Positions 1 to 37,039 of a stretch of 37,039 nt of DNA are shown piece after piece (within the stretch, counting starts at the first letter, position 1; every line of letters begins with the position of its first letter). This DNA is from Dirinaria sp. TL-2023a (lineage: Eukaryota). Made by a program: the position numbers and the translations under genes. The notes under the pieces were generated by a model, which did not search any database, was not told where the DNA came from, and saw nothing but the letters and a program-made list of their open reading frames with translations. The stretch is from positions 1-37,039 of the forward strand of contig JAVEBF010000058.1 in the NCBI GenBank assembly GCA_051941275.1, in the 5' to 3' direction.

Positions 1-2089
1 TCCTTCTTCTTCCCACCACCTTTACCCTCCTCCTCATTCCCGCTCTCCAGTCTACTAGCCTGCCCCACCCCCGCTAAAGTCTCGCTCGAGGAAAGCTGCG
101 CCGCGCGATCGGCCGCCAGCAGCGCCACCTGCTGCCCCACCGTCGGGCGGGCGATCAGATCCTCCAGACGCACGATATAGCCTTCGCCCTCGAGGATCGA
201 GGTCAGGGAGGCGAGGCTGACGAGGTCGCCGCCGGCGGCGTAGAAATTGGATTCGAAGGTCAGTGCCGTGAGGGGTTTGGACTGGTCTCGGCCGGGGCTG
301 TTGTTCGAGATGAGGGGGAGGACCATGCGCCAGCAGCGCGTGAGCGTGTCGGCGAGGTAGTAGAGGTCTGATTTCTCGAGCGTGCGCAGCGTGGAGAGGG
401 CTTGTGATTGCATCCGAGGATCTGGTGGTGGTTGTGATTGTTGATGTTGCTGTCCGGTGCGTGTTGTTGGTTGGATCTCGGATTGTGCGCGACGGGGCAT
501 GGTGATGTTTTCGAGCGGTGATGCTGCTAGCATGGACGTCAGACTACTTTTGGGTTTTTCGGCGAGCTGCTGCGCCAGGCTGCAGGTTAAGTCCAGAGCC
601 GCTTGCGCGACCGTTGGCGGGATATTGCCATCGTCGATAAACCCGAGTGCGACCTCCACCGTATCCTCGCCCTTCGGGGTCGACACGATAGAGACGTCGG
701 CAAGCGTGTCTTGCGGGGCCAGGAACCCGACTTTGTACTTGACTTTGTCGAGATCGAGCGAGACGTCCTCCGCCAGGTTTTGATGCTGCACTATACTCGA
801 GAAGTAGGTCCATTCGGGCCAGTCGGTGCAGTGTTGGATGATTTCCCTGAAGCCCAGTGATTCGAATGACATGCCCGCGACCTGTTGGTTCTGAATGCGC
901 CGGAGCAGGTCCAACGCGGTCCATTTCGGCTCGATTTGCACCCGCACCGGCACGATATTCAGGCACGCTCCGACTATGCTTTCAACATCGTCCACGGCCG
1001 CGTTCCGGCCGCTGATCAGATTTCCGAAAACGATGTCTGATCGTCCGGACATCTGAGCGAGGACAAGTGCCCATGCGGCTTTCAGCATGGTGGCTGTCGT
1101 GACGTTCTTAGAGGCGAGCGCTGGTAAGTCGATGGTCTTCTTCAGCACGGTTTCCGATCGTCCGGTTCCGCTGTATTTGGGCTGTTCGCGAGGGACGAGG
1201 TGCGTCATTGATGATCCCTTAAGAAGCCCATTCCAGTATTCATAGTTGCCTTGGCTTGCGTTTCCATTGGTGGCCTCCTTGACGTAATTCGAGAATGGTG
1301 GTGATGGCTCTGGCATGGTCTCTTTGCCTTCATATGCCATTTTGAAGACTTCAATGATCTTGGGCAGGCATACGCCATCGTACTGTGCATGCGACAGCCG
1401 TATGACTATACGATGAGCGGAGCTGTTCAGCTTTTTGATAACCATGAACTGGATGTAGGGCTCGCCTAGTCGGGGATATGCGCCCGGGCTCTCCTGGCGT
1501 AGCTGGCGAGTGTATTCATCAAGATCTGTTTCGGTCTCGTAGACGAGGACAGGGGGTCGGATTCTTTTGAGGACTACTTGGAGAAAGCTGTTACCACAAG
1601 ATATAAAGACGGTGCGTAGAATATCGAAATGCTGGACCAGTGCCGAAGCGGCCTTCCTAATGCGATTGATGTCCAAAAAGCCCGTACCGTCGAAGAAGAA
1701 GTAGTTCAGCATCCAGCGTTGTTCTAACAATGAACCTGCTATCGCCAGGGCCTGAAAGTCTGTAACCGGGAACGCATCCACAATGCCGATCCGGAACACT
1801 CCCACTTTAGGACATAGGTAATCCTGGATGAACGCGTCGGTATTGGCGGCTCTCAGCAGTGAGAAGCGAGCGGGCTGCTTTTCTTTGGTGTTTGCTAAAG
1901 CTGCTTCGCGCTTAGTGACCATCGCAGCCTCGTTGAGCTTCCGCTCCTGTTCCTTATTCTCAGTGGAGACTGCGACTATTTCCGCCATGTCTGAGAGTGC
2001 CGGGGACCGGAAAACATCCGCAACTGTCAAGCTTAATCCAGCTTCACGCGCGGCTCGAGCCAATGCCATGGCCAAGATCGAATCCCCAC
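1..2089 (-). CDS. NRPS exon 10 (runs off the window): T6, terminal CT condensation domain, Ser-less T7
   Basis: Acceptor CTAAT..CTCAG|GT GGG GAT TCG (GGDSILAM); RLSHAQYDGVC (SHAQYDG at 1394-1374); SNFYAAGGDLVS near 250-216. The segments I translated are all in one frame, still open at base 1 (..EEEGKGGGKKK), which would explain its absence from the ORF track. Confidence 0.92.
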
Positions 2090-5000
2090 CTGAGAGTCGA
2101 AAGCATTAGCAGATTTTTACCAAAGGAGCGTATGAGAAATTTGAATTTAGCATAAGAATATGATTTGAGACACAGGGCTCACTCTTCGCGTGCTTATCAA
2201 TTTAGAAAACGAAATGGAAAGAAGAATTCACTCACCAAGTTCAAAGAAAGTATCGTCATCTCTTATCTTCTTCTCGGGCATGTGAACTAGGGGGCTCCAA
2301 AGCGCGCGAAGCTTCGGAAGGATTGATTCAGATCCTCGACTTCGGTTCATAGCACCATAATGAGTTTTTGGCTCGTCGTCGAATGAAGCTGATTTGAGCG
2401 GCCGCTCATAGTCGGGTGAAGTATCAGGACCGCCTAGTTTTTGCTCTACTAATTCCGTCGCCCTTTGCAGCTTGTCCATGTACACCGACAAGTCATCGGA
2501 CTTGAACATCTGTTGGAGGACTTCATGCACGCATTGCTTGACAAGGCCGCGGTAATCTTGTGAATGGAAGTCTTCTGGATTCACAAGGCTTCCGGAGTTT
2601 GAGGACGAATCATCGCCGGCTTGGGTATCCTCCGACATAGAATCGTCGAAGTGGTGGTGCTCGTTGCTGGTGATCTCTGACCCATCAAAGCTGGCTTGGC
2701 CATCGACCTCCCTCTCGGCTGCCAGGACGAATTTAGACATGGGTTGATCGGCGTTATCTAGGATGCTACCCAGTACGTTGGCGTAAGTACGGGACAATTT
2801 CTCCGCTTCTGGGATCGATATATGCGATGTCCAGTGTTCGATGCGGGCACCTTCGTCGCCAAGTGCACTTCTCACGTTGACAGTGATAGCGTACTAAATT
2901 ACGCCAGTTAGCATGCAGCTCGTATTCTCATCAAGCTGACCGTTTATGTAACGTACCTCAGTCGGATCCGAGCCAGCAATGGGCTCAATTTCGATGGTAT
3001 CGCCCTCCCTCTCAGCATCTTTTGAGGATATTTGATTCTGTATCGACACGGCTGTGTTGAACAAGGGCTCCCTAGAAAAGCCAAGATCGTGCTGAAGTTT
3101 GGCGAGCGAGCAGTGCTGATGTGGCAAGCTCTCCAGATAGTCACTTTGGACGTTGCGAACGATATCCTTGATACTTCTTGAATGCTCAAATGTCACGCGG
3201 CAGACCAACATATTGATGAAAGCGCCCACCGTGTCTTGAATGCCGTCCACAGGGGCATCCCTGCCTGCTGTGAGATTGCCGAAGCAAACATCGTTCATAG
3301 AGGTGTAGTGCCTGAGGACCAAGCCCCAACCGGCAAGCATAACGTTAGAGAGCGTGAGCTCGTTCGCCCTGCAGAACGCCTGTAGCTCTGCAAATCGGTC
3401 GAATTGAAAATCGACGATGTTCAACCGAGTCGCTTCCTTTGGTTCCGGTCGTATGGGAGGCAGGTGACAACGACGTATCCCATCCAGATAATTCTTCCAG
3501 TAGGCTGCGTCTATTCTCTCATCGCGGCTGCTGATGAATTTGACGTAGTCGGAATACAACGGTTTAGAGCCATCTGGTAGGCGGCCTTGGTACGCTAGCG
3601 CGAGGTCTCGTGTGATCAAAGCGCCTGATTCGCCATCGATGACTGCGTGGTTCAGTTCCAGCTTGATGTAACATCGCCCAGAGTTTGTCATGCAGATGGA
3701 GAGCTGTTGCGGCAGCATCGGGCGCCGAGTGCGGTTCACCTCTCGGAGAGAGATCTTGCCAAGCTCATTCTCCCATTCGGAGTCGTCGCAACGCACGATC
3801 ACGGCCCCGCCTTCTGCGTACTTCATCGCGATCTGGTCGAACGCGTGGCTTTTGCAGACGCTGTAGACGAACGCGGTGCGGAGGGACTGGTGACGGTCGA
3901 CGACCTTCTGCCACGCCCTGGCCATGCGCTGCACGTCGACTTTGGCCCCCTTGAACGCCAGCTGCACTTCCGAGATGACAAAGTTGACGTACTGCGTCGG
4001 GTTGCGGATCTGCGACAGCAGGAGCCCTTCCTGCGTGGGTGCGCAGATGTACATGTCTTCGACCTCGTCCAGGGTCGAGATGCCGATCTCGTGGAACGTC
4101 TCGTCGACGTGTTTCGCGAGCCCGCTGTAATCCGTCGGCAGGAGCGGGAAATCACTCAGGGTCGGCTCGCGCCGGTGATCTGCCAGCCGCACGACGAGAT
4201 CGGTCAGCGTGTCCCGGCATTTGCTGACCCATTGCTGGATCTGGGGCTGATGCTCCATGTGCCTGTTCCACATGAACGAGAACCGCGCTTGGCCGTTGGT
4301 GATGGCCACGGAGATCTCGAAGAGCGCCATCCTCACGGCTGCGGGCCCGACGTCGGCGGTGCGGGTCTCCTCTTCGCGGCTTTTGACGAGGTCGAAGGGT
4401 TGCAGCAGTGCGTCTTTGGGACCTCCAGAGCTCTTTGATTGTCCGGTATAGTTGAGCAGGATCTCGATCGGCATGTGATCACCGAAGCGCCACCGACCAT
4501 CTGGCGTCAGGAAGCGATGAGCGAAATATTCCCTCCCATTGGCCTGCAGAGATCGGCGAAGATCTTTTACCCGCTTCAGGATGTCGATAGAGTTTAGATC
4601 CACGTCCTCTTGCGCTATGGCGATCGGATAGATGCTCGTAAACCATCCGATGGTTTCAGTAGGGTCGATGGCCGTATCCCAGGTATCACGGCCGTGGCTT
4701 TCGTTGAAAATCGTCGGCATCGCTCGCCGCTGGAACACGCTTCTGAAGGAATGCAGCAGAGCACTTTGGAACAGTTCGATCGGCTGTGTTTGCAATGCCT
4801 TGTTTGACTTGCCAACAACCAGTTCCGTGTGAGACTTGTTAAGTTGAAAGCTCGCGTGCTCGACATCTGCGTAGAGATTACTGCGACCCAACATACCCCA
4901 TGATGCCAGATCCGGCTTTTGTACACGGAACGGCAGGATTTTCTTGATTGTCGATGGATCCCTCCGGCAAGCACTATCGTTTTGTAGTGCGGACCAGACT

Positions 5001-8000
5001 TGGAAAGATAACGGTTTTTCGATTCTTTCCGTTTGCAGCGTGAGCAGGTCCTCGAGTTGCTGAAGCATTATGTTCCATGAGACGACGTCAATGATTAGAT
5101 GATGCGCTATGAGCGATAAGATTTGACCGTGTTGTGGGGAGTGCAGAAGCTCGACTGCAAACAGCGGCCCGTTTTCTAAGTCGAGGCTGCTTTGGCTCTC
5201 CGAAAGCACGCGCAGGAGGTCACTGGGACTGTTGACTTGGTGCTCGCGGAATCGGTGAGATTCTGAAGCGGAAATGGTGATTCTTTGACGCCAATTACCG
5301 TCCATATCTCTCTGGAATCTTGCCCTGAGCATTGAGTGCTGCTGGACTATTGTCCTGACAGCATTTTGAATGGCCTTGGCCTCGGTCTTGCGGTTGAAGC
5401 GTAATAACTGACTCTGGTTGAAACGGCTCTCTTTCGTATAATCGCTCGAAGACCCTGCTAATTCGAAATACAGCCTTTGTACGGGAGACAGCTCAAAGAG
5501 TTTGTCAACTTTTTCCTCTGCAAAGAGTGTCTTGCTGTTCTTCGTCGAGTAACCTCTTGAGTCGAGCGTGGTCCCGAGCTGGAACAAGGATTTACTTTGT
5601 AGAACCTCTTGCAGGGAGAGATTGATACCAATCTTGCGGCACCGAGCAATGATGGACATGGAGATCAAAGAATCTCCGCCCTGCGACATGAAAGATCGAC
5701 CAGGGTCGATCTTGTCCACAGCAATGTTGAACACGGAAGCCCAGACTTCTCGAAGTCGCTGCACGGTCTCGGTAATTGGGGCCTGTCCAGAAGCACCTCG
5801 CTCATCGCCGACAATATGCTGATAACTAACCTCGTCAAGACCGTGGATCCACTTCTCGACCTGCTTCCTGTCGAGCTTTCCCGAGACGAGGATTGGGATT
5901 GCCGCCATGATCACCCAAACGGTCGGCATCATGTAGGCAGGTAACTGATCCGATAGCGACTCGCGGACCTTGTCCAATTGGGCTTGCGCCATTTCGAGAG
6001 GCTCCCCTTGAAGAAGCTCACAAGCATTTGACGCTGAGCTTTTAGACGCGAGAGACGGATCAGACATTGAAACGACTGCCACCAAGCGCTCCTTGCACAG
6101 GCCTTCCTTAGGCAGCAGAGCCACTCCATGACGAATTTGATCATGAAGCGCAAACTTGCTCTCGATTTCGCCGAGCTCCATGCGCTGCCCATGCAACTTG
6201 ACCTGGTTATCCCTGCGACCAATGAACGCGATGCTTCCGTCCTCGTTGTATCTCACCACGTCTCCTGTTTTGTAAATTCTCCCCGGGGTCCCTAGCTTCG
6301 CTTCGAAATTTTTGGCCCAAGTAGTGGTCGCGATGAACGCCGCGGCTGTTTTGGCTTCGTCGTGGAGGTACTCTCGGGCGAGGATTGGTCCTCCCAAGAG
6401 AAGCTCACCCACACAACCTAATGGGGCGAGACGGTTATGATTATTGAGATCGGCAATCCACGCGCGACCGTTGGTGTGAGCGAAACCGATATTAGAAGGA
6501 TCTGTAGATTGGGTAACCCTGGAATTTGCTACAGAGATCACAGCAGCCTCGGTTGGACCATATCCGTTGACGAGCTGTACCCGATCGGCCCATTTAAGCA
6601 CGTTGTCCTGCGACAAAGCTTCACCGCCGCAAACCTAGTAAATCGTGAGATCAGCATTCATCTTCTGACGTATCGCAAGAATCCAGCAAAACGTGGCGCA
6701 GGAGTGCAGCCCGCAGAGTGCGCGTCATTGCTTCTGGCAACCGCCCAGACAGCGAGAAATAAGAACAGAATTTTACTCACCAATGTCTTCAAAGATGGAA
6801 CTACGGTCGGGTCGATGAGGCTCGCAACGGAGGGGGTTAAAAAGGCCCATGTTGCACTGAGACCTGCGATAGCTGCGTCGACATCCATCTTCCCTTCGTT
6901 GTTTGGTAGACATACGCAAGCTCCCAATGTCAAAGGCGAGAGATTCTCCATCAGTCCTACATCGAATGTAACTGAGGCAAAGTTGAAGACTCGAGAATTG
7001 ATATCCATCAACATGGCAGCACAGAATGCTTCTGAGCTCGTACAGAACGCTTCGTGTTCCACTACTACCCCCTTCGGGCGTCCGGTAGAGCCCGAAGTAA
7101 AGATAACATACGCTGTGTTGGTACTGGATACCTGGACAACGGAGGCTTCGTAGTCAATAATTGCCTCTCCTTGAACCATTGTCTGCTCATCGACTGGGAT
7201 GACCGTCTCGACGACTTCTGCGTACCGGCTTTGATATTGCGGTGAACACAGTATTATCTTTGCGTTCGTATCCTTCAGGATTTCGGAGTGGCGAGTCATA
7301 GGATGTGACGGGTCAAGAGGCACGATAGCTCCACCAGCCATAAGAACAGCCAATTGTGCAACAATCGCCCACCGGGACTTGTCCATACAGAAAGGGATCA
7401 AGACTTCCGGAGCAACGCCAAGCCTGATTAGGCGTTTGGACAAAATATCAGCATTAGTCCTCAGTTCTGCATAGGTAAATGTCCCATCCCAGGCACATAC
7501 AGCCTGGGTTTGAGGTGTTGCTTCTGCTCGCTGCAGGAAAAGGTTGTGAATGCATCGCTTGACAGGGATTGGATGATAATCGTTCCACTGCGCTATCAAA
7601 TCGACGTCTTGCTCGCTAATGACTTGGATATCGTCCAGGGTGGCGCGGCTACCGGGTGGTGATGAAAACAACTGCCCAAGTATCGATTCAAGCTGGTATA
7701 GTAGCCTTTGAACCAGCCACTTGGAGAGCATAGTTTCATCATAATGAGCATCGACGTGAATGCTTGATCCACCCATGTTGCATTCTATGACAAGCGGATA
7801 CGTGAAGAAGTCGGAGCTCACACCCGAGCCTTGAGGATGCCACATCTTTGATTCGTCTTGGGCGCCGGCTGTTTGGATGATCAGGAGATTCTGAAAATCA
7901 CACGCTCTTGCCGCCTCCGTGCCGAGCCTGCGGATGTTCTGCAGGCCCGTATGCTGGTAAGGGATGACGTCCGTAGCCATCCGATGAATGCTCTGCAAAA

Positions 8001-23000: not shown

Positions 23001-25294
23001 AGCCTCGTGCTAGTGTAGGACCTTCTATTGCAAGCTCCGCGACGCATCCTGGTGGAACAAGTCGTGTATGGTCACCAGGGTCTACCAGCCAGCATTGCAC
23101 ACCAATTCCACAGCCGATCAAAGTTGGTTGCTGATCTAGTGCGACGTTCATATTGACCACGGCAGCCACTGAGGTCTCGGCAGGGCCGTAACCATTCATC
23201 AAATTGATAGACGACCATGTTGCCATGTGTTCTTCACTCATTGCCTCGCCCCTGGGGATCGATAGAATTAGCTTAGGCTTTCAATTGGGTAGCGTGTTGC
23301 GAGTGAAGAATGTACTTAAGGTCGCGTTCAGAGTGTGGTCCCTGCAGGAAGTCTTGCACACCTTCCGTATTGCGAGAGCAAGGATATATATGTAGGATAT
23401 CACTCACATCATAAGCAGAGATTTCAGGCTTGGTACCAGAGACGGGTTGAAAAAACTGGCCACCGAAGGAGTAAGCGCCGCCCAGTCAACGCGCATTTGG
23501 TTCACAACAGAAGTGAGGTCGTTCACGCGCGAATCCTCGTCAGGAACACAAATCGTAGCTCCCACCATAAGGGTCGTAAGCACCTCAAGAATGGAGGCAT
23601 CGAATACGTAGGATGCATCTGCAGGAACGTTGAGTCAGTAAAGCTTAGTAGAAGAGTACCAATGCGACAAGTAGTAGATCCTGAGTAGAACCGGATTCCG
23701 ACAACATTACGTTCGAAGTGCCAAAGGGAAATCCAGTCAAAGTTACCAATCTGTTGAACACGGGCCATTCCCTAGTATTGTACTAGCCAGCGATCTCCAT
23801 CCCGCACCACGATATGCTAAACTGTATTTCTGTCTTGAGGACGTGGTGGATATGATGAGAGGGAAAGCATATCAGACTTAGCTACTTACACTGCAGGACC
23901 CGCGAATCCGCTTTCATACGAAATTTTGGCGCATGAGACTTGGCGGCTGAGCAGTAAGCGCGATGCTCAATCACGACACCTTTAGGTTCACCGGTCGAGC
24001 CAGACGTCCATAAAACATAGGCAATATTTCCTGGTTTAGCTCGCGATTGCTTCTCCAGCGAAACATCGGTTCTGGATTTGAAGGTCTCGATATCTATTGG
24101 CAGAGTTCTTTCTGCGACAGAAGAAAGCTCGGCCAAAAATTTTCGCGAGCACAGTACAAGACGAGCTTGTAGCTTTAGAACAAGCCCTTGGACACGGCTG
24201 GTGGGCTGGGTAGGATCTAGGGGGCAGAAGGCTGCTCCTGCCTCGAGAACCGCCAGCATTGCGACTGTCGACCAGATGGATTTTTCAAAGCATAAAGCGA
24301 CAACGCTTTCCGGGCCAATACCAAAGTCCGTAAGTACATGCGCCAGTGACTGTACATGGGCCCATAAATCTCGATACGTCAAGCTTCCGTCCCATGCGCA
24401 TACAGCTTCACGTTCGGGATGTATTAGAACCCTCTCATAAATAACATCGTGTATACACGCATCGGTCGGCTCATCGGGAGCTTGACTCCATTTCCGGATC
24501 TGTCGCTCATGGTCATCGTTGATGTAATTGACATCGAAAAGCGATATTTGAGGAGAGACGATTAGGGTAGAGAGAATCGTTTCGAGAGTCTTCGCAAGGC
24601 TTTCGAGGTACAGCGTAGACACGAAGGACTCTTGCGATGCCAATTTGAGATCCGGGTTGTTGGGATTTAGGTTCGCAAAGAGCCAAACTTCCCCCTGAAA
24701 TCATAGTTAGTTCACAGGTAACCGCAGGACAAGTGATGTTGGAAAGAGCTTCACCTTTGTAAGGTTCGGATCCTGCAGCTTTTGCATCTGCTCGTCAAGC
24801 GCTTGCGCTTCCTCTTGCATCCAGATCGTTGTATTGCAATGAAAAGAATCTGATGAAGGACGCAAACCCGAGGTTATATTGCTTGGAGAGGACTGTGGCT
24901 GCCGAGCATAAGTAATATCTGCTTGTGCCTTGTGAATGTATGCCAGTAGTGGTTCGTTTCCATACAAAGACATTTGAAACTCAGATCGATGTTGTTGCCA
25001 TGCGGTAGACTCTGAATCCGCAGATGCGCGATTGCATCGTCGAATATGGAAGCATACATCATCCTGCCCAGTGAAGCAGCGTAAAAGGAGGGCCCAAGCG
25101 GTGCATAACAGGCCCTCGAATTGTGCTCCATTCCTTGCACAGAGATGGTGAAGCTCTTTGGTTTGCTCCAATCTTACTCCAGTGGCTAGGAAACAGTGTG
25201 CAGAGCTGCGTTTACCGTCCAACAAAGGTAGCTTGCACAGAGCATGGCGAGAGAAAGCCTCTCGCTCCTGCCTGGGTGTCACACTTCCTGGCAT
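1..25294 (-). CDS. NPS4: Multimodular fungal NRPS, NPS4/NRPS4 (fusahexin synthetase)-like, 3'-truncated by the window edge. Spliced CDS: join(25294-24755, 24694-23890, 23618-23408, 23251-20293, 20151-17527, 17349-12272, 11950-6781, 6634-2957, 2893-2236, 2089-<1) = 23813 nt, >7937 aa
   Basis: Five A domains with TSGS/TTGxPKG, YGPxE, YKTGD and SGKLDR motifs; six G(G/A)DS carrier motifs; three E domains (HHLxxDxVSW, EG/SHGRE/D, GWFT); C domains (SHTIIDG, HHSLYDG x2, SHSIVDG, NHAVIDG); terminal SHAQYDG. All nine introns have GT..AG ends and CTRAY-type branch points, and every junction preserves frame. The symbol is a family-level assignment from architecture and the divergent ABC neighbour, not from a database search. 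Confidence 0.95.
2090..2235 (-). other. NRPS intron 9 (146 nt)
   Basis: GTGAGT..CTAAT..TCTCAG; phase 1, restores FFELGGDS. Confidence 0.92.
2236..2893 (-). CDS. NRPS exon 9: end of C5, long A-less linker, first half of T6
   Basis: Acceptor CTAAC..TTTAG|TAC completes DPTEYAITVNV; ends DDTFFEL(G) at donor GTGAGT (2235). Confidence 0.9.
2894..2956 (-). other. NRPS intron 8 (63 nt)
   Basis: GTACGT..CTAAC..ATTTAG; phase 0, restores DPTEY. Confidence 0.92.
2957..6634 (-). CDS. NRPS exon 8: rest of A5, T5, E5, most of C5
   Basis: Acceptor TACTAG|GTT TGC GGC GGT GAA (VCGGE); QGGDSL, HHLIIDVVSW, NHAVIDGES; donor GAG|GTACGT at 2956. Confidence 0.95.
6635..6780 (-). other. NRPS intron 7 (146 nt)
   Basis: GTGAGT..CTGAT..TACTAG; phase 0, restores LKTLVCGGEA. 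Confidence 0.92.
6781..11950 (-). CDS. NRPS exon 7: C3, A4, T4, C4, first half of A5
   Basis: SHSIVDGTS, FTSGTTGLPKG, VGGDSV, HHSLYDGWS, FTSGSTGRPKG; donor TTG|GTGAGT at 6780. Confidence 0.95.
11951..12271 (-). other. NRPS intron 6 (321 nt)
   Basis: GTAAGT..CTAAC..TTATAG; phase 2. Confidence 0.88.
12272..17349 (-). CDS. NRPS exon 6: T2 (GADS), C2, A3, T3, E3, start of C3
   Basis: Acceptor CTGAC..GCTAG|GGC GCG GAT TCG; HHSLYDGWS, FTSGSTGKPKG, LGGDSL, HHLVVDVVSW; donor CC|GTAAGT at 12271. Confidence 0.95.
17350..17526 (-). other. NRPS intron 5 (177 nt)
   Basis: GTATGT..CTGAC..GGCTAG; phase 0, restores FFRMGADS. Confidence 0.9.
17527..20151 (-). CDS. NRPS exon 5: rest of C1, A2, first half of T2
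   Basis: Starts DGASM, completing SHTIIDG; YTSGSTGKPKG, FDNSLEE, NQYGPSE; ends FFRM|GTATGT. Confidence 0.93.
20152..20292 (-). other. NRPS intron 4 (141 nt)
   Basis: GTCAGT..CTGAC..CTTAAG; phase 0, restores catalytic SHTIIDG. Confidence 0.88.
20293..23251 (-). CDS. NRPS exon 4: rest of A1, T1, E1, first half of C1
   Basis: NGYGPAE, YKTGDL, LGGDSI, HHLVIDLVSW, NEGHGRE; ends SHTII at donor GTCAGT (20292). Confidence 0.93.
23252..23407 (-). other. NRPS intron 3 (156 nt)
   Basis: GTGAGT..CTAAT..CCCCAG; phase 2, restores LLMMGEAM. Confidence 0.88.
23408..23618 (-). CDS. NRPS exon 3: A1 substrate-pocket segment (absent from the ORF track)
   Basis: Acceptor CTGAC..CCTGCAG|AT; translates (Y)ASYVFDASILEVLTTLMVGATICVP...WAALTPSVASFFNPSLVPSLKSLLM; donor AT|GTGAGT at 23407. 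Confidence 0.9.
23619..23889 (-). other. NRPS intron 2 (271 nt)
   Basis: GTAAGT..CTGAC..CTGCAG; phase 1, restores LQYASYVFD. Confidence 0.9.
23890..24694 (-). CDS. NRPS exon 2: end of partial C domain and start of A1
   Basis: Acceptor CTAAC..TTTCAG|GGG; CIHDVIYER, AYVLWTSGSTGEPKG; donor T|GTAAGT at 23889. Confidence 0.9.
24695..24754 (-). other. NRPS intron 1 (60 nt)
   Basis: GTGAAG..CTAAC..TTTCAG; phase 0. Confidence 0.8.
24755..25294 (-). CDS. NRPS exon 1: N-terminal partial condensation domain
   Basis: First in-frame ATG at 25294 (MPGSVTPRQ); LLCTAWALLLRCFTGQDDVCF resembles the C-domain second-half motif AWAMLLRCYTGSDDVSY; donor AAG|GTGAAG at 24754. Confidence 0.75.
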
Positions 25295-27570
25295 TATGGT
25301 GTACAGGGTTCTGTCGTTTGTGTTGGCGAAAGCGCAGTAAGACAAGAAAGAAGCACCTTCTTGTTACCACGTTGCGGTAGCTTTTCTTTGCTTCGTGTGA
25401 GGGGGGAGGCTTTGACGCGCCTCCTTTGAAAAATCAAATCTCTTCGAAATGTAATGAAAAGCCCAGAAACAGCGCAAAAATGGGCTCACTGACTTTGACA
25501 GAGCAGACAATCGCTCGGCATCACCATTACATCGAGGCCACGGTCCGCCCAACTCTTAGCTCATGGCAGCTGCTGAACTTCAGCCAAGATTCCATCACCA
25601 GGTAACGCCTCTGACGCCCATGAGAAGCATCACTACGGTGACCGGTCCTGGCGGCGCCCGATGCGAGTCACCACTCTAACCTCTCAGTGTTTTGGCCCCC
25701 ACAGATATTGATTGTTATGCCCGTAGGGGAGTGCTGGGTTCTCTAAAGGGAGAAGCTGCACCGGCTGGGCAGCAGCTACTCTTCGATCAAGCATTTTAGG
25801 CAAGCATGCTATTCGTTGTCGCGGTTTCATTTACCTAACGTGATCAGGTTCTCTTGCGACACCCGATCAGTCGTGGCCGGCCTAGGATCGTTTTGTCAAT
25901 TGTCCATCGTCAATAATGCCGGCTAGAGCTTCGAATTTGATGTCGCTAGACCAGATCACAGTGATGAGTGAAGTTTCTAGCGCACGCGAAGCAGAAGCTA
26001 GTCCCTGCAGGGTGCCGCCACAAGTCAGCTTGCATGGCTGGCATATTTCCTATTGCGTTAATGGAAACATTGGCGGCAGGCTCTTCTGGCAAATATTTGG
26101 ATCGGGTGGTGTAAAATCTGGGGGAGACCGTTGTGCGCGATATGCAGGTCGAAGCCAATTTTGCGGGGAGAACGATTCTCAGCCATTCATACCCATGCAG
26201 CCTGCATGCACAGGTCCCCAGTCTATGGATAGTGGTTATGCTTGTTGGGGAAACATGGAAACACATGCGCGTGAGCACGCAGAGTGGCTGGAAATGCGCG
26301 TCAAATCTGTGGCACGCCACTTGGTAAAATTGGCGATTGCGTGACTCGAGGAATTGGGCGTGAAGATGGCTGACTGTCAGAATGTCATTCGCCTCCCCCT
26401 CCCTCATTCCCGGCCAAAGTTGAATTAGACTCAGCGAACGGGCCTCCCGAGTGACGTGATAGGTACAGCCGTAAGAGCTACGGGCGGATACTCGGGGGGC
26501 GCCGCCATGACAAACATGGAGGGGCTGCGGTGATCGTTTCGATGTTGTCAGACGGGACTCCGGGAGAGAAACAAGAAGCTGCCCATCCAAGGCCGCTGTC
26601 AACCTTCCTTTGCCGGGTTGGGAAGAAATCTCGTCAAATTTCTCCTGATCAGGCCTTTGGCTAGCTGAAACAGTGGAAATCTTTTTCTGGTCCACCGGTA
26701 GAGCTAAGTTAGCTTGATGAATGGTCGGTCGCTTTTTTTTTTCAACCGTCGCCGCGTCGGCCAACCGTCCGATACGAGAAACCCGACGGCGCGTTGTGAC
26801 TAAGCAAATAATTCGACTTATGATCGGGATTCGTGGTAGCGCAGCATCTGAAGATCTAAATGTAAGTACCAACACTACATCACTAACCAAAAAAACTTTA
26901 TGGAGGAAAAAAAAAAAAACCTTGATTAGTTACGCGGGATTTTTGACTGGAAATCTACCTTACCTGTGACATTTTGCATAAGCCACATACATCTCCTTTT
27001 GCCGCACCTCTCCTGTCTCACCCAACCCCATGCCCGACTAGACTTGCAGCTCCAAGTGCCCTCATTGCGCGATCTCATGTAGTGTAACATCAAAGCTCTG
27101 GCACGGTAGGCTGGTAGCCCAGCTTCTGCCAAACCATCTCTTTTCAGCGGGCTCGCGGTCGCCACTGACTCCACTGTTTTTTCTCAGCTCCCCGAATACG
27201 TGATAGCAACGTTGTGACTGCATCAGAGGCTGACGCTTTGCTCGGTTCGAGTACCAACCAACCGGCATGTTGTCCAAGCCGAGGTACTAAAAAACGGCCC
27301 ATTCTGGCTCTTGACTATGCTCCGGGCTCAGCCAGGAGACCAGGTCCATCTTTCTGGAATTCTCCTTTCCGCTGCTGTGTGACCGAATTTGCATGGCCCC
27401 GACCCTCGGTAACCTCGTGACTTCAGCATAAGCGCTGCAAAGAATTCTCCGTGGGAAATGTCAGTCCACGGTAGATCTCTGTCAGGAAACCCACTTCTGC
27501 GCTGAAACTGGTTCCCTGCAATCTTGTATCATTTGCTCGACAAGAGGAGCCTCTGGCTCAAGTGGTCAAA
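25295..27570. promoter_or_regulatory. Divergent (likely bidirectional) promoter and 5' UTR region between NRPS and ABC transporter
   Basis: Lies between two head-to-head start codons; contains poly(dA:dT) tracts T10 (26733-26742), A7 (26889-26895) and A13 (26907-26919). No specific TF site can be asserted. Confidence 0.65.
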
Positions 27571-30500
27571 ATGTCGTTAGCATCATGTACCGTCGTCGAT
27601 AATACCTTCGGTCCCCACGCGAAATATTGCCGCGGCGGCTTTGATTTTACTTTGCTGTTTGAAGAAAGCATCCTTTCCGTGGTCCCGTTGATACTGTTAC
27701 TCGGCATTGTCCCTCTTCGCATTCTCTACCTGGTCCGGAGGACGATTAAGGCAGATGGGGGTCTGCTATTGCCATCCAAGCTGGTGAGCCTCCTCCGTTG
27801 AAGTTTCATGTCCGGGCGAGCGAAAGGCTGACGCTCCCTCAAATCAGATCTTATACACCATATATGGCGTGATTCAGGTTGCTCTCGTTGTGTTATGGGC
27901 AAGCCCAACGGCCAAGAGAACGAAAGCCTCAGTTGCAAATGCAGCCTTAACACTTGTGGGCTCGCTTGCTTTGGCGCTTCTCTCGTTTGTCGAGCATCAG
28001 AGGACCATCCGGCCTTCCCTTATAACGGAATTTTACCTGGGTCTGTCGCTCCTATTCGATTCAGTGAGGATTAGAACGTTGTGGCTACAAAGATACAATG
28101 GCACCGTTGCCGCAACCACTACAGCATCACTTGTGATTAAGTTGATACTGTTCTGGGTCGAGGCCGTTGGGAAGCGGCGTGTGTTGCGCCCAGAGTGGCA
28201 GAGACAATCGCCTGAGGCCACAAGCGGCCTATGGGGCAAATTGTTTTTTTGGTGGTTGAATCCACTCTTCTTGACGGGCTTTGCAAGGTCGCTGTCGATG
28301 GAGGACATGATTCCGCTGGACAAACATCTCACCTCCGACTATCTCTATCACACATTGCACAAAGCCTGGTCGAGGATGGGACACCAACGCTCATTGCTTG
28401 CGGTTTATTTCCTAGACTTGAAGTGGCATCTTCTGTCTGTAGTGCCTCCTCGTCTAGCTCTCATCGGCTTCACCTTTTGTCAGCCATTTCTTATTCAAAG
28501 AGCGGTAAATTTCATGGGGCAGCCAGTGAACGAAAGCACGACCAATGTTGGGTATGGACTGATTGGCGCGTATTTTCTTGTGTATTGCGGCATTGCCTTG
28601 ACAACAGGCCAATACCAGCATCTAACGTATCGTGCTATTACCATGGCCAGAGGCGGTCTGGTGTCGATGCTTTTCGCTAAAACGTCGTTTTTGGAGGCCA
28701 ATGCCGTTGACTCTGCTGCATCACTGACCTTGATGAGCGCTGATATTGAGAGGATCACAACTGGTTGGCAGACTATGCATGAGATCTGGGCCAACGTGAT
28801 AGAAATTGCACTTGCGATATATTTGCTTGAACGTCAGCTTGGAGTGGCTTGTGTGATCCCGCTCGCGGTCGCAATATGTAAGTCTCTTTCCTGAAGAACA
28901 GTGTCACGGTGGTCATAAAGGTAGACCTCCCCCAAGAGGCGAATCTTAGGATTGCCTGCTTGGGGGCATTGCGACACCTTGACGTACATCAGCGTGTTGG
29001 CACCTCGAGACTGGGTCGCAGAGAGGCTGGCGTTGGCTAAGTAACCCGTTGTCAAGTAGTGGGATTGTGTTAGAGCAAGAAGTCAGAAACATGGTTTCAC
29101 GAACAAAACTGCAAGCAGCTTGCCGAGACCAAGTCTTCTGCGAGTGCCACCCGCTGTGGCAGATAGGTTGCGATACGCTGCTAACTACATTTTGTGTTCT
29201 TAGGTTCTTTTCTCGGCTCAATCTTTGTCGTGAATCTGGTCGTCTACAGGCAAGGCCTGTGGCTCGAAGCAATGGAAAAACGAATCAGCGCCACGACTGT
29301 GATGCTCGGATCGATGAAGCGCATCAAGATGTGCGGTTTGTCAGAGATATTCTTCGAGAATGTGCATTCACTTCGGCTGAAGGAATTGCGTGTCTCAAAA
29401 CGTTTCCGAAGACTGCTCATTGGAAGTATTTTCTTCGCATTCACAACTCCCGTAATCGCGCCTGTATTGACTTTTACTGTCTTCTCTCTGCTGGCACTCA
29501 GAAACGCCGATTCTACCTTGAACACCGAAAAGGCTTTTGCGTCGCTTTCGCTTTTCGCACTTTTGACCGACCCGCTGTCGTCATTGGTGATGGCTTTGAC
29601 GACTTTTGCTGGTTCGTTCGGATGCTTCGGCCGTATCCAAACTTTTCTAGAGACTCGAGAACATCAGGATAAATGCATCAAACATCTGGATGCAGACTTG
29701 GACGACTCGGAGCCTTCTCAAACCAGCGGCAGCTCGGATGAAAGTCTAGGCTGGACCGAAAAATGGACTGAAAAGCCTATCGCAACTTCTCTGATTAAGA
29801 AGAGCGTGGGCCCTTTGCCGAAGGCCAGTGGCGATGCCCTACGTATATTGGATGGAAGCTTCGGCTGGGACACGGAAAAGGCCCCTGTGATATCTTCAAT
29901 TCGCATGAAGGTGCCTCGAGGGAAACTGACAGTGATTGTGGGTCCTGTAGGTTGTGGGAAATCAGTTTTATTAAAATCGCTCCTGGGCGAAGTTCCAACT
30001 CTCTCAGGAACTGTCAAACATTTATTCTCGGGCGACATTTCTTACTGTGATCAATCTCCATTTCATATGAATGGCACAATTCGAGATAGCATACTTGGGT
30101 CCTCAAGGATGGACGATCGATGGTACAGTACCGTTTTGGAGATGTGTGATCTGGAAGACGATCTGCAACAATTGCCCCAAGGCGATCAGACAAGCATCGG
30201 AAGCAAAGGTATCGCGCTGAGTGGTGGCCAAAGCCAGCGCGTTGCTTTAGCACGGGCTGTTTATGCTCGGAATGACCTTTGTGTTCTCGACGACGTGTTC
30301 AGTGGTCTTGATAGTGATACTGAGCACCGCATATTTCACAATCTCTTAGGCTTCGACGGGCTCTTGCGGCGACAGGGCACCACCATCATCCTTGCTTCTT
30401 CTTCCAACAGAAGGCTTCCATTCGCGGACCACATCATCGCCCTGAACGAAAAAGGCAATATCGCAGAGCAGGGAAGCTTCGAGGACCTGAATACGAGCGG

Positions 30501-32441
30501 AGGCTTCGTTTCAAGCCTTGACCTGCCACCAGCCGAATGGAACCTTGACCCAAAGGAAACATCTTTGGACAGGCTGGTGCCCACCGCGGCGAAAGCTGCC
30601 GTTGGGACTTTGTCAAAAAACGAAACACCGCAGGCTGAGGAATTTGAAGCAAATAAGCGAACTGGGGACCTTTCGATCTATTCTTACTACGCTGGATCTG
30701 TCGGTTGGCTCGCAGTAGTCGTTTTCATCGTTTCCATTTGCTGTTATGTGTTCTGCATATCTTTCCCGCAGATCTGGCTGGCTTGGTGGGCGGAAGCAAA
30801 TGCGAAGAAACCAAATCAAAATCTAGGATACTGGCTTGGTATCTATGCGATGCTGGGTGTTGTAGGCCTGACATCCCTGGTCATCAGTTGCTGGCAGATA
30901 ATAGTAAAAATGGTTCCACAATCAGGAGGGAACTTCCATGCTCGACTTCTAAAAACGGTTCTCGCCGCACCGATGTCGTATTTCTCGACCACAGACACCG
31001 GTATCACGCTTAATCGCTTCTCGCAGGACCTTCAATTAATCGACATGGACTTACCCCTTTCAGCTTTGAACTTCTTCACAGCCTTCGTTCTTTGCATCGC
31101 TCAGATTATCCTGATTGGTGTCTCATCAGTCTATGCAGCCATCTCATTCCCTTTGTGGATAGTGGCACTGTACCTTATACAGAAGTATTATCTACGTACA
31201 TCCCGACAGCTTCGGTTCCTGGACCTTGAGGCAAAGTCTCCATTGTACACGCAATTTGCGGAAGTCATCGCTGGCCTGACCACAGTTCGGGCTTTTGGCT
31301 GGCAAAGAGCTCTGGTAAACAAGAACCGAGAGATGCTCGACCAGTCCCAAAAGCCTTTCTATCTTTTGTTCTCCGTTCAGCGATGGCTACAACTCGTCTT
31401 GGACTTACTGGTGGCTGCTGTTGCTGTGATGCTAATGATCCTGGTCGTAGAATTGAAAGGTTTCTTGAGCGGAGCTTATGTGGGTATCGCGTTACTAAAT
31501 GTCATCCTCTTTAGTCAGCATCTCAAGCTCGTTCTTCAATACTGGACGATGCTGGAAACCCACATCGGCGCGGTATCTCGCGTCAAAAACTTCATAGCCG
31601 CTACCGTTCCGGAGGACTTGCTGCAAGAAGATACGGCGCTTCCGCAGGACTGGCCAGCACAGGGTGCCATCAACTTCCAATCCGTCTCCGCGAGCTATGA
31701 TGGATCTCGAAAGGTGTTGAAGGATCTGACGCTGTCCATCCAAGCTGGCGAGAAAGTCGGCGTCTGCGGTAGAACAGGGAGCGGCAAAAGTTCCCTTGTT
31801 ATGGCATTATTCCGTATGCTGGAGCTGCACGGCGGCTCCATCACCATCGATGAGGTCGATATCTCAAAGATTCCACGCGGAGAGGTTCGCTCGCGAATCA
31901 TCGGGCTTCCTCAGGATGTATTTCTGTTGGATGGCACAGTACGATTGAACGTGGACCCTTTCAAAAATAATACCGACAAAGCGATCATCGGCGCTTTGCA
32001 AGACGTCAGATTATGGGAAACGATCCAAGGAAAGGGAGGGCTTGAAGCACAGGTCGCAGAGTTGAATCTATCGCATGGCCAGAAGCAATTGTTCTGTTTA
32101 GCGCAGGCGCTGCTTCGGCAGAGCTCCATACTGGTCTTAGATGAGGCTACAAGCAGGTCAGTACAAATCTCAATGAAGTCTTGGGAGTGCGAACTTCAGC
32201 TAACCGAGCCAAACCTCTCCACAGCGTCGACGACATTACAGATTCATTGATGCAACGGATCATCAGGCAAAAGTTCTCCAAGCACACTATCATCGCCGTA
32301 GCCCATAAATTAGACACAATTTTGGATTTTGATAAGGTTGCCGTGTTGGACAACGGTGTCTTGCGAGAGTTCGAAAACCCGACCAGGTTGTTGGAGATGC
32401 CAGAATCTATTTTCAGCAAGATATATAATCACAGCGGGTAG
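27571..32441 (+). CDS. Full-length ABCC/MRP-type ABC exporter (TMD0-TMD1-NBD1-TMD2-NBD2), 1470 aa; join(27571-27783, 27848-28877, 29204-32156, 32225-32441)
   Basis: N-terminus DNTFGP..CRGGFDFTLLFEE typical of fungal cluster-associated ABCC transporters; FFWWLNPLF; NBD1 GPVGCGKS, LSGGQ, VLDDVFSGLD; NRFSQDL, LDLEAKSPLY; NBD2 GRTGSGKS, LSHGQ, LDEATSSVD, VAHKL. Three GT-AG introns give 4413 nt in frame, ending in TAG. Confidence 0.95.
27784..27847 (+). other. ABC transporter intron 1 (64 nt)
   Basis: GTGAGC..CTGAC..AATCAG; phase 0. Confidence 0.88.
28878..29203 (+). other. ABC transporter intron 2 (326 nt)
   Basis: GTAAGT..CTAAC..TCTTAG; phase 1. Confidence 0.9.
32157..32224 (+). other. ABC transporter intron 3 (68 nt)
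   Basis: GTCAGT..CTAAC..CCACAG; phase 2, restores LDEATSSVD. Confidence 0.92.
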
Positions 32442-35158: not shown

Positions 35159-35181
35159 TTTTTTTTTTTTTTTCTTTTTTT
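35159..35181. repeat. Poly(T) tract T15-C-T7
   Basis: Read directly from sequence. Confidence 0.9.
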
Positions 35182-36879: not shown

Positions 36880-37039
36880 GACATCCCAGACCTCCTATCC
36901 AATACTCTCATTTTTCTCACCTCGCTTATCTACTTATCTAAGTCCACCTCACATAAACAAGACCCCCATAAAGAATCCTCATTTCCCACTAAAAGAAACT
37001 CCAAAAAAGTCCCAAGCCCACAAACCCCACACAAACCCC
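36880..37039. repeat. Low-complexity C/A-rich, G-poor stretch ending in a CACAAACCCC direct repeat
   Basis: ..aagcccacaaaccccacacaaacccc; very few G on the + strand. Confidence 0.55.

What the first reader, a model, noticed from the sequence alone, without database searches (positions are those of the whole stretch)
1..32441. Two-gene NRPS + ABCC locus predicted to make an alternating D,L cyclic hexapeptide different from fusahexin
Seen: E domains in modules 1, 3 and 5 only, six Ser-containing T domains, a terminal SHAQYDG CT domain, and a head-to-head ABCC exporter. Known: Fusarium graminearum NRPS4 has this layout and makes the hydrophobic cyclic hexapeptide fusahexin, cyclo(D-Ala-L-Leu-D-allo-Thr-L-Pro-D-Leu-L-Leu), and fungal CT domains macrocyclise. 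Hand-read GrsA-aligned pocket codes are A1 DALALMGVAK, A2 DNEDGGQINK, A3 DAVLVGAVVK, A4 DAMLVGAVIK, A5 DVMFVGGVIK. Inference: these do not fit the fusahexin sequence (A2 is polar/acidic; A3 and A4 are near-identical hydrophobic pockets), so the product is probably a different and possibly undescribed cyclo(D-X, L-basic, D-aliphatic, L-aliphatic, D-hydrophobic, L-X).
Basis: partly seen in the sequence, partly recalled or inferred. Interest (0 to 1): 0.8.

Follow-up and report, generated by a model that had tools for sequence, protein, structure and literature searches.

The report
Lichen-fungus NRPS4 (fusahexin-type) peptide cluster
This is a lichen-forming fungus's copy of the known two-gene cluster (a giant peptide synthetase plus an ABC exporter) that makes water-repellent cyclic D/L peptides such as fusahexin in other ascomycetes, so it is a new member of a known kind.

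Summary
A spliced NRPS (minus strand, ATG 25294, 10 exons, at least 7,937 aa) has E domains in modules 1, 3 and 5, six Ser-bearing T domains, an SHAQYDG CT domain and a divergent 1,470-aa ABCC exporter. All five pocket codes were reproduced exactly.

- There are only five A domains; module 6 is C-T only.
- A Ser-less carrier-like domain follows CT.
- About 40 C-terminal codons lie outside the window.
- The organism is a lichen fungus. The nearest named relative is Blastenia crenularia (59% identity, full length).

The locus is a positional orthologue of F. graminearum NRPS4, the fusahexin synthetase (42% identity, collinear; each A domain groups with its same-position counterpart).

The argument that the codes "do not fit fusahexin" fails, because F. 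graminearum NRPS4 carries the same traits. Its A2 is DNADAGCVNK, and its A3 and A4 (DAMLVGAVVK, DAMLVGAVIK) differ at one position. Only A1 (3/10) and A5 (7/10) differ notably.

The likeliest product is a fusahexin-like cyclic D/L hexapeptide made by re-using one A domain; an L-basic residue is unsupported. RNA contigs from a lichen metatranscriptome show the gene spliced as modelled.

Verdict: new member of a known kind, moderate-low interest.

The parts
1..25294 (-). NRPS gene (NRPS4/NPS4 'WARP' type). ATG at 25294; 10 exons: 25294-24755, 24694-23890, 23618-23408, 23251-20293, 20151-17527, 17349-12272, 11950-6781, 6634-2957, 2893-2236, 2089-1. At least 7,937 aa. The 3' end (about 40 codons plus the stop) lies outside the window.
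   Evidence: Splice model with 9 GT..AG introns and no internal stop. Six of the 7 introns inside 6001-26000 appear as joints in RNA contigs. Full-length collinear blastp to P0499 (59%) and P0437 (42%). P0241 extends about 40 aa further.
24545..25294 (-). N-terminal remnant of a C-like domain (residues 1-230), upstream of A1
   Evidence: Weak Pfam Condensation hit, 22.1 bits, below the cut-off. Orthologues show an N or C-like element at the same place.
22438..24247 (-). A1 (code DALALMGVAK); interrupted by introns 23889-23619 and 23407-23252
   Evidence: Both introns are confirmed by RNA joints.
22183..22395 (-). T1 (LGGDSI)
20818..22155 (-). E1 (HHLVID, EGHGRE, GWFT, FNYLG)
   Evidence: TIGR01720 47.5 bits
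19267..20745 (-). C2 (SHTIIDG; follows an E domain); intron 20292-20152 lies inside the motif
   Evidence: This intron is not covered by an RNA joint.
17662..19029 (-). A2 (code DNEDGGQINK)
17236..17625 (-). T2 (MGADSI); split by intron 17526-17350
   Evidence: The RNA joint comes from one run with only 29 letters on the shorter side, so it is weak.
15850..17172 (-). C3 (HHSLYDGWS)
14245..15597 (-). A3 (code DAVLVGAVVK)
13990..14202 (-). T3 (LGGDSL)
12610..13962 (-). E3 (HHLVVD, EGHGRE)
   Evidence: TIGR01720 41.6 bits
10924..12567 (-). C4 (SHSIVDG); contains intron 12271-11951
   Evidence: RNA joint in two runs; it skips 322 with one extra letter.
9229..10671 (-). A4 (code DAMLVGAVIK)
8980..9192 (-). 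T4 (VGGDSV)
7594..8916 (-). C5 (HHSLYDGWS)
5828..7341 (-). A5 (code DVMFVGGVIK); contains intron 6780-6635
   Evidence: RNA joint in three runs.
5567..5779 (-). T5 (QGGDSL)
4193..5530 (-). E5 (HHLIID, ESHGRD, GWFT)
   Evidence: TIGR01720 29.2 bits
2690..4090 (-). C6 (NHAVIDG); contains intron 2956-2894. It is followed by an approximately 120-aa linker and no A domain.
   Evidence: The linker has no Pfam or NCBIfam hit.
1977..2335 (-). T6 (LGGDSI); split by intron 2235-2090. This carrier has no A domain of its own.
504..1826 (-). CT, the terminal condensation-like domain; SHAQYDG at 1394-1374
114..341 (-). T*, a carrier-fold domain without the pantetheine Ser (GGDLVS, 233-216)
   Evidence: Pfam PP-binding 20.5 bits against a cut-off of 20.8. 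AF2 model pLDDT 81. Foldseek top hits are carrier domains, but E is only about 1e-2. None of 82 homologues has Ser at this position.
25295..27570 (.). Shared 2,276-bp region between the two divergent start codons
   Evidence: An RNA contig runs unspliced from 24754 to 25946.
27571..32441 (+). ABCC-type ABC transporter gene. Four exons: 27571-27783, 27848-28877, 29204-32156, 32225-32441. 1,470 aa. Order TMD0, TMD1-NBD1, TMD2-NBD2.
   Evidence: Pfam ABC_tran, ABC_membrane and a weak TMD0_ABC hit. Splice model with no internal stop, 98.6% identical to P0121. All 60 listed PDB matches are ABCC members. Named relatives are all lichen fungi.

Best explanation
Window 1-32441 holds a lichen-forming ascomycete's copy (Lecanoromycetes) of the conserved two-gene NRPS4/NPS4 ('WARP') cluster.

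Shown here. The NRPS has the domain string C*-A-T-E-C-A-T-C-A-T-E-C-A-T-C-A-T-E-C-T-CT-T*. It is a positional orthologue of F. graminearum NRPS4, the fusahexin synthetase. An ABCC transporter is transcribed divergently from it.

Inferred by analogy with the published fusahexin and fungisporin models.
- A1 to A5 load T1 to T5.
- E1, E3 and E5 invert residues 1, 3 and 5. The C domains that follow them carry [S/N]HxxxDG instead of HHxxxDG.
- The A-less sixth module (C6-T6) is loaded by a second use of an upstream A domain; this is A5 in the fusahexin model.
- CT releases the chain as a macrocycle.
- The ABCC pump exports the resulting cyclo(D,L,D,L,D,L) hexapeptide, or a small family of congeners, to the hyphal surface, where such peptides confer water repellence.

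Pocket comparison. Modules 2 to 4 carry the same pocket types as the fusahexin synthetase. A1 and A5 differ. The product is therefore most likely a fusahexin-like congener that differs at residue 1 and possibly at residues 5 and 6. It is unlikely to be a peptide with an L-basic residue.
For: - Architecture.
- Same domain string in relatives: of the 59 representatives P0241-P0299 annotated, P0242, P0243 and P0244 share the whole string. P0245 shares it but lacks the first A. P0248 shares it but ends in a T-scored element in place of T*, and P0279 shares it but lacks T*. F. graminearum P0437 also shares it, ending at CT.
- Collinear full-length identity: 59% to Blastenia crenularia P0499 and 42% to F. 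graminearum P0437.
- A-domain tree (quick method): each window A domain falls in a group with the same-position domains of 7 orthologues including F. graminearum. Support is 96, 99, 75, 98 and 99. Each is sister to the Blastenia domain with support 99-100.
- Codes against F. graminearum: 3, 6, 9, 10 and 7 of 10 positions. Against Blastenia: 7, 9, 9, 10 and 10.
- A5 (DVMFVGGVIK) matches HcpA A3 (DAMFVGGVFK) at 8 of 10 positions. That module supplies D-Val/Ile in the authors' model (passages of PMC4041764).
- Transcription: spliced RNA contigs from a lichen metatranscriptome, one sample.
- Published models: five modules with the last re-used through a C-T-C tridomain (preprint 10.64898/2026.07.13.738209, whole text; passage of PMC10967133). 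HcpA has the tail E-C-PCP-C-PCP with an A-less module loaded in trans (PMC4041764).
Against: - There is no chemistry for this organism.
- Ring size, which A domain loads T6, and every residue identity are inferred.
- Pocket codes are demonstrably poor predictors in this family. F. graminearum A3 and A4 differ at one position yet are assigned D-allo-Thr and L-Pro.
- Identity to the characterised enzyme is only 42%.
- A2 differs from F. graminearum at 4 of 10 positions, including A to E at position 239, so a different residue 2 cannot be excluded.
- Family members are reported to make mixtures of different lengths (preprint).
- The last 40 or so codons are not in the window.
- The RNA contigs are only 90-99% like the window. 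They come from a close relative or another strain, and all from one sample.
- Intron 20292-20152 has no RNA support.
- The A-domain tree is the quick version; the careful search did not finish.
Confidence: 0.72

Rival explanations
1. One reading: a distinct, undescribed hexapeptide cyclo(D-X, L-basic, D-aliphatic, L-aliphatic, D-hydrophobic, L-X), with A2 selecting a basic residue.
For: A2 (DNEDGGQINK) has Glu at position 239 and Asp at 278. By recalled bacterial rules an acidic pocket suggests a basic or polar substrate. The Glu/Gln subtype of A2 differs from the Ala/Cys subtype of Fusarium. A related synthetase in Apiospora incorporates Lys (preprint).
Against: Asn236, Asp278 and Asn331 of this pocket are family-wide (105 of 108). 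They are present in F. graminearum NRPS4, whose module 2 is assigned L-Leu. The 'aliphatic' A3 and A4 pockets are 9 and 10 of 10 identical to those assigned D-allo-Thr and L-Pro in fusahexin. WARPs are described as largely hydrophobic.
Confidence: 0.13
2. The product is fusahexin itself, with the same six residues as in Fusarium.
For: The architecture is the same and the A3 and A4 pockets are 9 and 10 of 10 identical. Fusahexin is made by at least two Fusarium species.
Against: A1 matches at 3 of 10 and A5 at 7 of 10. Overall identity is 42%. The family is reported to vary in sequence between taxa (preprint).
Confidence: 0.1
3. The enzyme makes peptides of another length, either a pentapeptide that skips C6-T6 or a mixture of ring sizes and linear forms, rather than one hexapeptide.
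For: Apiospora NRPS4 and HcpA give families of cyclic and linear products, and peptide length does not follow module number (preprint; PMC4041764).
Against: C6 keeps its catalytic His (NHAVIDG) and T6 keeps its Ser. The identical tail in F. graminearum gives six residues from five A domains.
Confidence: 0.12
4. The cluster is decaying or silent, a pseudogene.
For: The stop codon is not seen in the window. The 4.6 kb beyond the ABC gene shows no recognisable gene.
Against: The spliced frame of 7,937 aa is open and all catalytic motifs are intact. Spliced RNA contigs exist.
Confidence: 0.03

Closest known systems
Fusarium graminearum NRPS4 with its adjacent ABC transporter (fusahexin cluster)
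   Same: Both have five A domains, E domains in modules 1, 3 and 5, and an A-less C-T-CT tail. An ABC transporter lies next to the NRPS. The alignment is collinear over the full length and the A domains are positional orthologues. The A4 code is identical, A3 matches at 9 of 10 and A2 is of the same DN.D.G..NK type.
   Different: Identity is only 42%. A1 matches at 3 of 10 and A5 at 7 of 10. The Fusarium protein ends at CT and lacks the Ser-less carrier-like domain. The host here is a lichen fungus, not a plant pathogen. The product here is unknown.
Penicillium chrysogenum HcpA (fungisporin synthetase) and A. fumigatus Pes1
   Same: E domains sit in alternate modules. The tail is E-C-PCP-C-PCP with an A-less last module. 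The product is a hydrophobic cyclic D/L peptide with a role in surface hydrophobicity (passages of PMC4041764 and PMC8788816; preprint). HcpA A3 (DAMFVGGVFK) matches the window's A5 at 8 of 10 positions.
   Different: HcpA makes a tetrapeptide. Its A domains are rearranged (A4 beside A2), and one A domain is proposed to act in trans rather than the last module being re-used. I did not fetch the HcpA or Pes1 sequences; the codes are taken from the paper.
Apiospora arundinis NRPS4 (apiosporins A and B)
   Same: It belongs to the WARP class, with alternating E domains, an ABC partner and iterative use of a module (preprint).
   Different: It has six modules, starts T-C-A-T-E, makes heptapeptides and forms a Lys-derived imidazolidinone ring. 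Its sequence was not identified among my hits. P0030, from the same species, has a different domain string.
Predicted orthologues in lichen fungi: Blastenia crenularia P0499, and the unnamed records P0488, P0001 and P0008
   Same: P0499, the full-length one, has the same domain string up to CT. Identity is 59-63%. The A2 to A5 codes match at 9 or 10 of 10 positions where those modules are present. An ABC gene is adjacent in Blastenia.
   Different: A1 matches at 7 of 10. None of these has a known product.

Membership tests
NRPS4/NPS4 'WARP' synthetase cluster | An epimerisation domain in every other module | tested here: met
   E domains follow T1, T3 and T5 only.
NRPS4/NPS4 'WARP' synthetase cluster | An ABC transporter gene beside, and upstream of, the NRPS gene | tested here: met
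   The ABCC gene at 27571-32441 is divergent from the NRPS start at 25294. The same pairing is implied by adjacent locus tags in Blastenia.
NRPS4/NPS4 'WARP' synthetase cluster | Orthology to a characterised member: full-length collinear homology, with module-by-module grouping of the A domains | tested here: met
   42% identity over window residues 35-7762 against residues 25-7639 of P0437. The A-domain groups have support 96, 99, 75, 98 and 99 on the quick tree.
NRPS4/NPS4 'WARP' synthetase cluster | For the F. graminearum type: five A domains followed by a C-T-C tridomain | tested here: met
   Five A3..A10 motif sets, then C6-T6-CT with no A domain.
NRPS4/NPS4 'WARP' synthetase cluster | The product is a cyclic, mainly hydrophobic peptide with alternating D and L residues | not testable with these tools
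   Inferred only from the domain order.
NRPS4/NPS4 'WARP' synthetase cluster | Loss of the gene makes the mycelium wettable | not testable with these tools
   No genetics is available for this organism.
Fungal terminal condensation-like (CT) macrocyclising domain | It is the last catalytic domain, sits after a T domain, keeps the catalytic His of the xHxxxDG motif, and no thioesterase or reductase is present | tested here: met
   SHAQYDG at residue 7474, directly after T6. There is no TE or R hit in Pfam on any piece. Cyclising activity itself was not tested.
ABCC (MRP-type) transporters | TMD0 plus two TMD-NBD halves, with closest similarity to ABCC members | tested here: met
   Pfam ABC_membrane and ABC_tran (two stretches); TMD0_ABC at 19.8 bits, below its cut-off of 27. 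All 60 listed PDB matches are ABCC proteins (query P0121, 98.6% identical to the window's protein).
Peptidyl carrier (PP-binding) domains, for the C-terminal T* | A conserved Ser that carries phosphopantetheine | tested here: not met
   The window has GGDLVS, and none of 82 homologues has Ser there. The fold is carrier-like, but the Pfam score of 20.5 is below the cut-off of 20.8.

The most novel reading that the evidence does not exclude
Lichen-forming fungi use an NRPS4-type peptide as part of the waterproofing of thallus hyphae. This locus makes a not-yet-described fusahexin-type hexapeptide whose residues 1 and 5/6 differ from the Fusarium compound. Separately, the Ser-less carrier-fold domain after CT has a non-carrier role, for example docking onto CT or onto the exporter. 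It is conserved in four ascomycete classes, had no Ser in any of the 82 C-terminal homologues tested, and is lost in Hypocreales.
Probability: 0.35. Interest if true: 0.45.

Novelty: new member of a known kind. Interest (0 to 1): 0.3.

Why it matters
The cluster type, its architecture and its likely role in surface hydrophobicity are already in print, and the 2026 preprint says that Lecanoromycetes carry it. What is new is modest.

- This is a concrete gene model, supported by spliced RNA contigs, in a lichen fungus. No product of this family has been reported from any lichen in the papers I could search. The term 'fusahexin' occurs in 15 held papers, none of them on lichens. Searches combining lichen terms with NPS4 or fungisporin found no such report.
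- Hydrophobic hyphal surfaces are central to gas exchange in lichen thalli, so the peptide would be worth looking for.
- There is a methodological lesson. In this family the 10-residue pocket codes cannot be read by bacterial rules. The characterised fusahexin synthetase has near-identical A3 and A4 pockets for residues assigned as Thr and Pro.

Tried and rejected
- Whole genome of the window: none is held.
I obtained names instead from a third homologous-protein search seeded with P0243.
- Alignment to GrsA (1AMU): it ranked 12th and only five alignments can be printed. The code positions therefore rest on recalled motif anchors and on an alignment of the window's own A domains.
- Fusahexin paper (J Nat Prod 2021): not held. 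Its model is cited through passages of PMC10967133 and through the preprint. Any A-domain predictions in its supplement could bear on my code comparison.
They may already name lichen species.
- Earlier findings of this scan: nothing for this genome or for the search words.
- Window 32442-37039: no Pfam hit on the 10 frames of at least 80 aa tested, and only short frames otherwise. No tRNA in the whole window.
- The 327-aa frame at 25946-26929 (minus), in the intergenic region: no family hit and no homologue alignment. Rejected as a gene.
- 'Two NRPS genes': the 260-bp gap at 12009-12268 is an intron, not a gene boundary.
- My own T-domain HMM does not detect T*. Only Pfam (marginally) and the fold search do.
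- RNA cover: intron 20292-20152 has no joint, and the three RNA runs are one sample.
- The first automated search for the ABC splice sites found nothing, because one acceptor lay outside my search range. I solved it by eye.

Full report
**What is in the window.** Long frames on the minus strand from about 25.3 kb down to base 1 carry AMP-binding, PP-binding and Condensation domains; 8 of 10 stop-to-stop pieces have at least one. The pieces are separated by short stretches that start with GT and end with AG.

Guided by tblastn of relatives and by reading the junctions, I built a model with ATG at 25294, 10 exons and 9 GT..AG introns. It gives a 7,937-aa frame with no stop. The 260-bp gap at 12009-12268 is an intron, so there is a single NRPS gene.

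The frame runs off the window at base 1 without a stop. A fragment from a close relative (P0241, 80% identical by blastp) continues for about 40 more residues.

**Independent support for the splicing.** Contigs of three RNA runs of one lichen metatranscriptome sample (mostly 95-99% like the window) were laid on 6001-26000. They show joints at 6 of the 7 modelled introns there.
- Introns 6635-6780, 23252-23407, 23619-23889 and 24695-24754 appear in all three runs.
- Intron 11951-12271 appears in two runs, with one extra letter at the joint.
- Intron 17350-17526 appears in one run with only 29 letters on the shorter side, so it is weak.
- Intron 20152-20292 has no joint.
- A DNA-type run reads through intron 11951-12271 unspliced.

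Two of the confirmed introns cut through the pocket region of A1 and A5, so the codes of those domains rest on confirmed junctions. All RNA evidence comes from one sample and from a close relative rather than the same strain.

**Domain order.** Motifs, HMMs built from the window's own domains and the alignments give this order:
- an N-terminal C-like remnant;
- A1-T1-E1-C2-A2-T2-C3-A3-T3-E3-C4-A4-T4-C5-A5-T5-E5-C6-T6-CT;
- a final carrier-like domain, T*.

The three E domains carry HHL[VI][IV]D, E[GS]HGR[ED] and GWFT. TIGR01720, a model for the E-associated segment, hit 3 of 3 E segments and 0 of 3 C-type segments, always below its curated cut-off. C domains after an E domain read SHTIIDG, SHSIVDG and NHAVIDG. 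Those after an L-module read HHSLYDGWS. Six T domains keep the Ser. CT reads SHAQYDG.

There are, however, only five A domains. Between C6 and T6 lie about 120 residues with no family hit.

**The transporter.** On the plus strand, 27571-32441 encodes a four-exon, 1,470-aa protein. It has two ABC_tran stretches, one ABC_membrane hit on the long exon and a weak TMD0 hit. It is 98.6% identical to an unnamed record, P0121. With P0121 as query, all 60 listed PDB matches are ABCC proteins. The two start codons face away from each other across 2,276 bp.

**Whose genome.** The named relatives of the transporter are all lichen-forming Lecanoromycetes: Letrouitia 75%, Brigantiaea 71%, many Teloschistaceae about 70%, Bacidia 64%. 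The best full-length NRPS match is Blastenia crenularia P0499, at 59% over residues 9-7833. The runs that hold the sequence are labelled lichen metagenome.

**Family.** A search of 1.84 billion representatives with the last exon returned many proteins of 7,100-7,850 aa that match at their C-terminal end.
- Of the 59 representatives I annotated, P0242, P0243 and P0244 have exactly the window's domain string.
- P0245 has the same string minus the first A.
- P0248 has it with a T-scored element in place of T*, and P0279 has it without T*.

A search seeded with P0243 gave named full-length members, among them F. graminearum P0437 (7,639 aa) and F. poae 'FpNRPS4' P0414. These two are 81% identical to each other. 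The window aligns to P0437 collinearly at 42% identity (residues 35-7762 against 25-7639).

In a quick maximum-likelihood tree of 45 A domains, each window A domain groups with the same-position domains of seven orthologues including F. graminearum. Support is 96, 99, 75, 98 and 99. Each is sister to the Blastenia domain at 99-100. The careful tree search did not finish.

The literature describes this arrangement.
- F. graminearum has a two-gene NRPS4 cluster (passage of PMC11677700).
- NRPS4 has five modules, with the last one re-used through a C-T-C tridomain (passage of PMC10967133; preprint 10.64898/2026.07.13.738209, whole text).
- The preprint names the class WARPs. It defines the canonical cluster as an NRPS with an E domain in every other module plus an upstream ABC transporter, and says such clusters occur in Lecanoromycetes.

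**The pocket codes.** The positions were placed from recalled GrsA anchors: FD at 235, the residue three before the Pro of LTPS at 278, the two positions before GGE at 299 and 301, the residue after N of NxYGPxE at 322, positions +3 and +4 after that Glu at 330 and 331, and the Lys of GKxDR at 517. The 1AMU alignment could not be displayed.

Applying the same columns to relatives gives:

| Protein | A1 | A2 | A3 | A4 | A5 |
|---|---|---|---|---|---|
| Window | DALALMGVAK | DNEDGGQINK | DAVLVGAVVK | DAMLVGAVIK | DVMFVGGVIK |
| F. graminearum P0437 | DVTLVGCVVK | DNADAGCVNK | DAMLVGAVVK | DAMLVGAVIK | DIGFVGGVFK |
| Blastenia P0499 | DAIVLVGVAK | DNEDAGQINK | DAMLVGAVVK | DAMLVGAVIK | DVMFVGGVIK |

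The window matches F. graminearum at 3, 6, 9, 10 and 7 of 10 positions, and Blastenia at 7, 9, 9, 10 and 10.

Among 108 relatives with five complete codes (out of 123 examined, a sample dominated by Hypocreales):
- A2 fits DN.D.G..NK in 105;
- A4 is exactly DAMLVGAVIK in 94;
- A3 and A4 agree at 9 or more positions in 72.

The published model assigns these modules L-Leu, D-allo-Thr and L-Pro. Either the codes carry little information here, or the register of that model deserves a second look. I cannot decide which.

The window's A5 matches HcpA A3 (DAMFVGGVFK, D-Val/Ile in the authors' model) at 8 of 10 positions, and its A1 matches HcpA A1 (DAACVAGVAK, Phe/Tyr) at 6 of 10 (passages of PMC4041764).

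**Most likely mechanism.**

Shown:
- the domain order;
- intact catalytic motifs;
- orthology to F. graminearum NRPS4;
- the gene pair;
- spliced transcripts.

Inferred:
- Five A domains load T1 to T5.
- E1, E3 and E5 give D residues at positions 1, 3 and 5.
- T6 is loaded by a second use of an upstream A domain. This is A5 in the fusahexin model; a trans-acting A domain is proposed for HcpA.
- CT cyclises the chain and the ABCC pump exports it.

The best guess for the product is a fusahexin-like cyclo(D,L,D,L,D,L) hexapeptide whose residues from modules 2 to 4 resemble those of fusahexin, while residue 1 and perhaps residues 5 and 6 differ. Family members are reported to give mixtures (preprint), so congeners and linear forms are to be expected.

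**The extra domain.** After CT lies a 76-residue domain with GGDLVS where a carrier has GGDS.
- Pfam PP-binding scores 20.5 bits against a cut-off of 20.8.
- My T-domain HMM misses it.
- An AF2 model of the last 138 residues, built from 15 aligned sequences, has pLDDT 81.
- Its Foldseek hits are carrier domains. The best is the T domain of a fungal T-CT structure, 5ejd, with target TM 0.79-0.83 and rmsd 1.7-2.0 Å. No hit has an E-value better than 7e-3.
- In all 82 C-terminal homologues among the fetched proteins, the Ser position is I, L, V, F, M or P.
- Of 29 proteins annotated (the window plus 28 orthologues), 18 have it, counting the window. These include the named members of Eurotio-, Dothideo- and Leotiomycetes and the lichen-MAG records. 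The six Hypocreales proteins examined (four Fusarium, Paramyrothecium, Clonostachys) and the Diaporthe eres protein end at CT. Three others are truncated models, and one ends in a T-scored element.
- HcpA is drawn with a terminal PCP. I did not see the missing Ser remarked on in the passages I read.

**Verdict.** It is wrong in the argument that the pockets exclude a fusahexin-like sequence, and unsupported on the L-basic residue. This is a new member of a known kind, of moderate-low interest. Its main value is as a lead to the first peptide of this class from a lichen.

Noticed in passing
window 114-341 (minus); motif GGDLVS at 216-233: A conserved carrier-fold domain follows CT and lacks the phosphopantetheine Ser. 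None of 82 C-terminal homologues has Ser at that position. It is present in the window and in 17 of the 28 orthologues annotated, from several ascomycete classes. It is absent in the Hypocreales proteins examined, including F. graminearum NRPS4, and in the Diaporthe protein examined. Its function is unknown.
   Followed up: partly
P0437 (F. graminearum NRPS4 orthologue), A3 and A4 codes: The characterised fusahexin synthetase has A3 DAMLVGAVVK and A4 DAMLVGAVIK, which differ at one position. The published model nevertheless assigns them D-allo-Thr and L-Pro. Either the codes are uninformative in this family or the module-to-residue register merits re-examination.
   Followed up: partly
window 24754-25946: An RNA contig (run X2) runs unspliced to about 650 nt upstream of the modelled ATG at 25294. 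This could be a long 5' leader, DNA carry-over or another transcript. An in-frame stop at 25364-25366 precedes the ATG.
   Followed up: no
window 32442-37039: The 4.6 kb downstream of the ABC gene has only short frames, no Pfam hit on the 10 frames of at least 80 aa tested, and G+C of 41-50%. No gene was recognised.
   Followed up: partly
P0396 (record named Diploschistes diacapsis MAG): This 'lichen' protein carries Hypocreales-type codes (DVTLVGCVVK, DNADAGCINK ...), and its A1 and A2 are sister to those of F. graminearum in the tree. It may come from a lichen-inhabiting or contaminating fungus rather than from the mycobiont.
   Followed up: no
window 24545-25294 (minus): The NRPS starts with a roughly 230-residue remnant of a condensation-like domain before A1 (Pfam 22 bits, below the cut-off). 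Orthologues show a similar N-terminal C-like element.
   Followed up: partly
ABC gene against NRPS gene: The transporter is much better conserved than the synthetase. Against Blastenia the ABC is 69% identical and the NRPS 59%; in Letrouitia the ABC reaches 75%.
   Followed up: no
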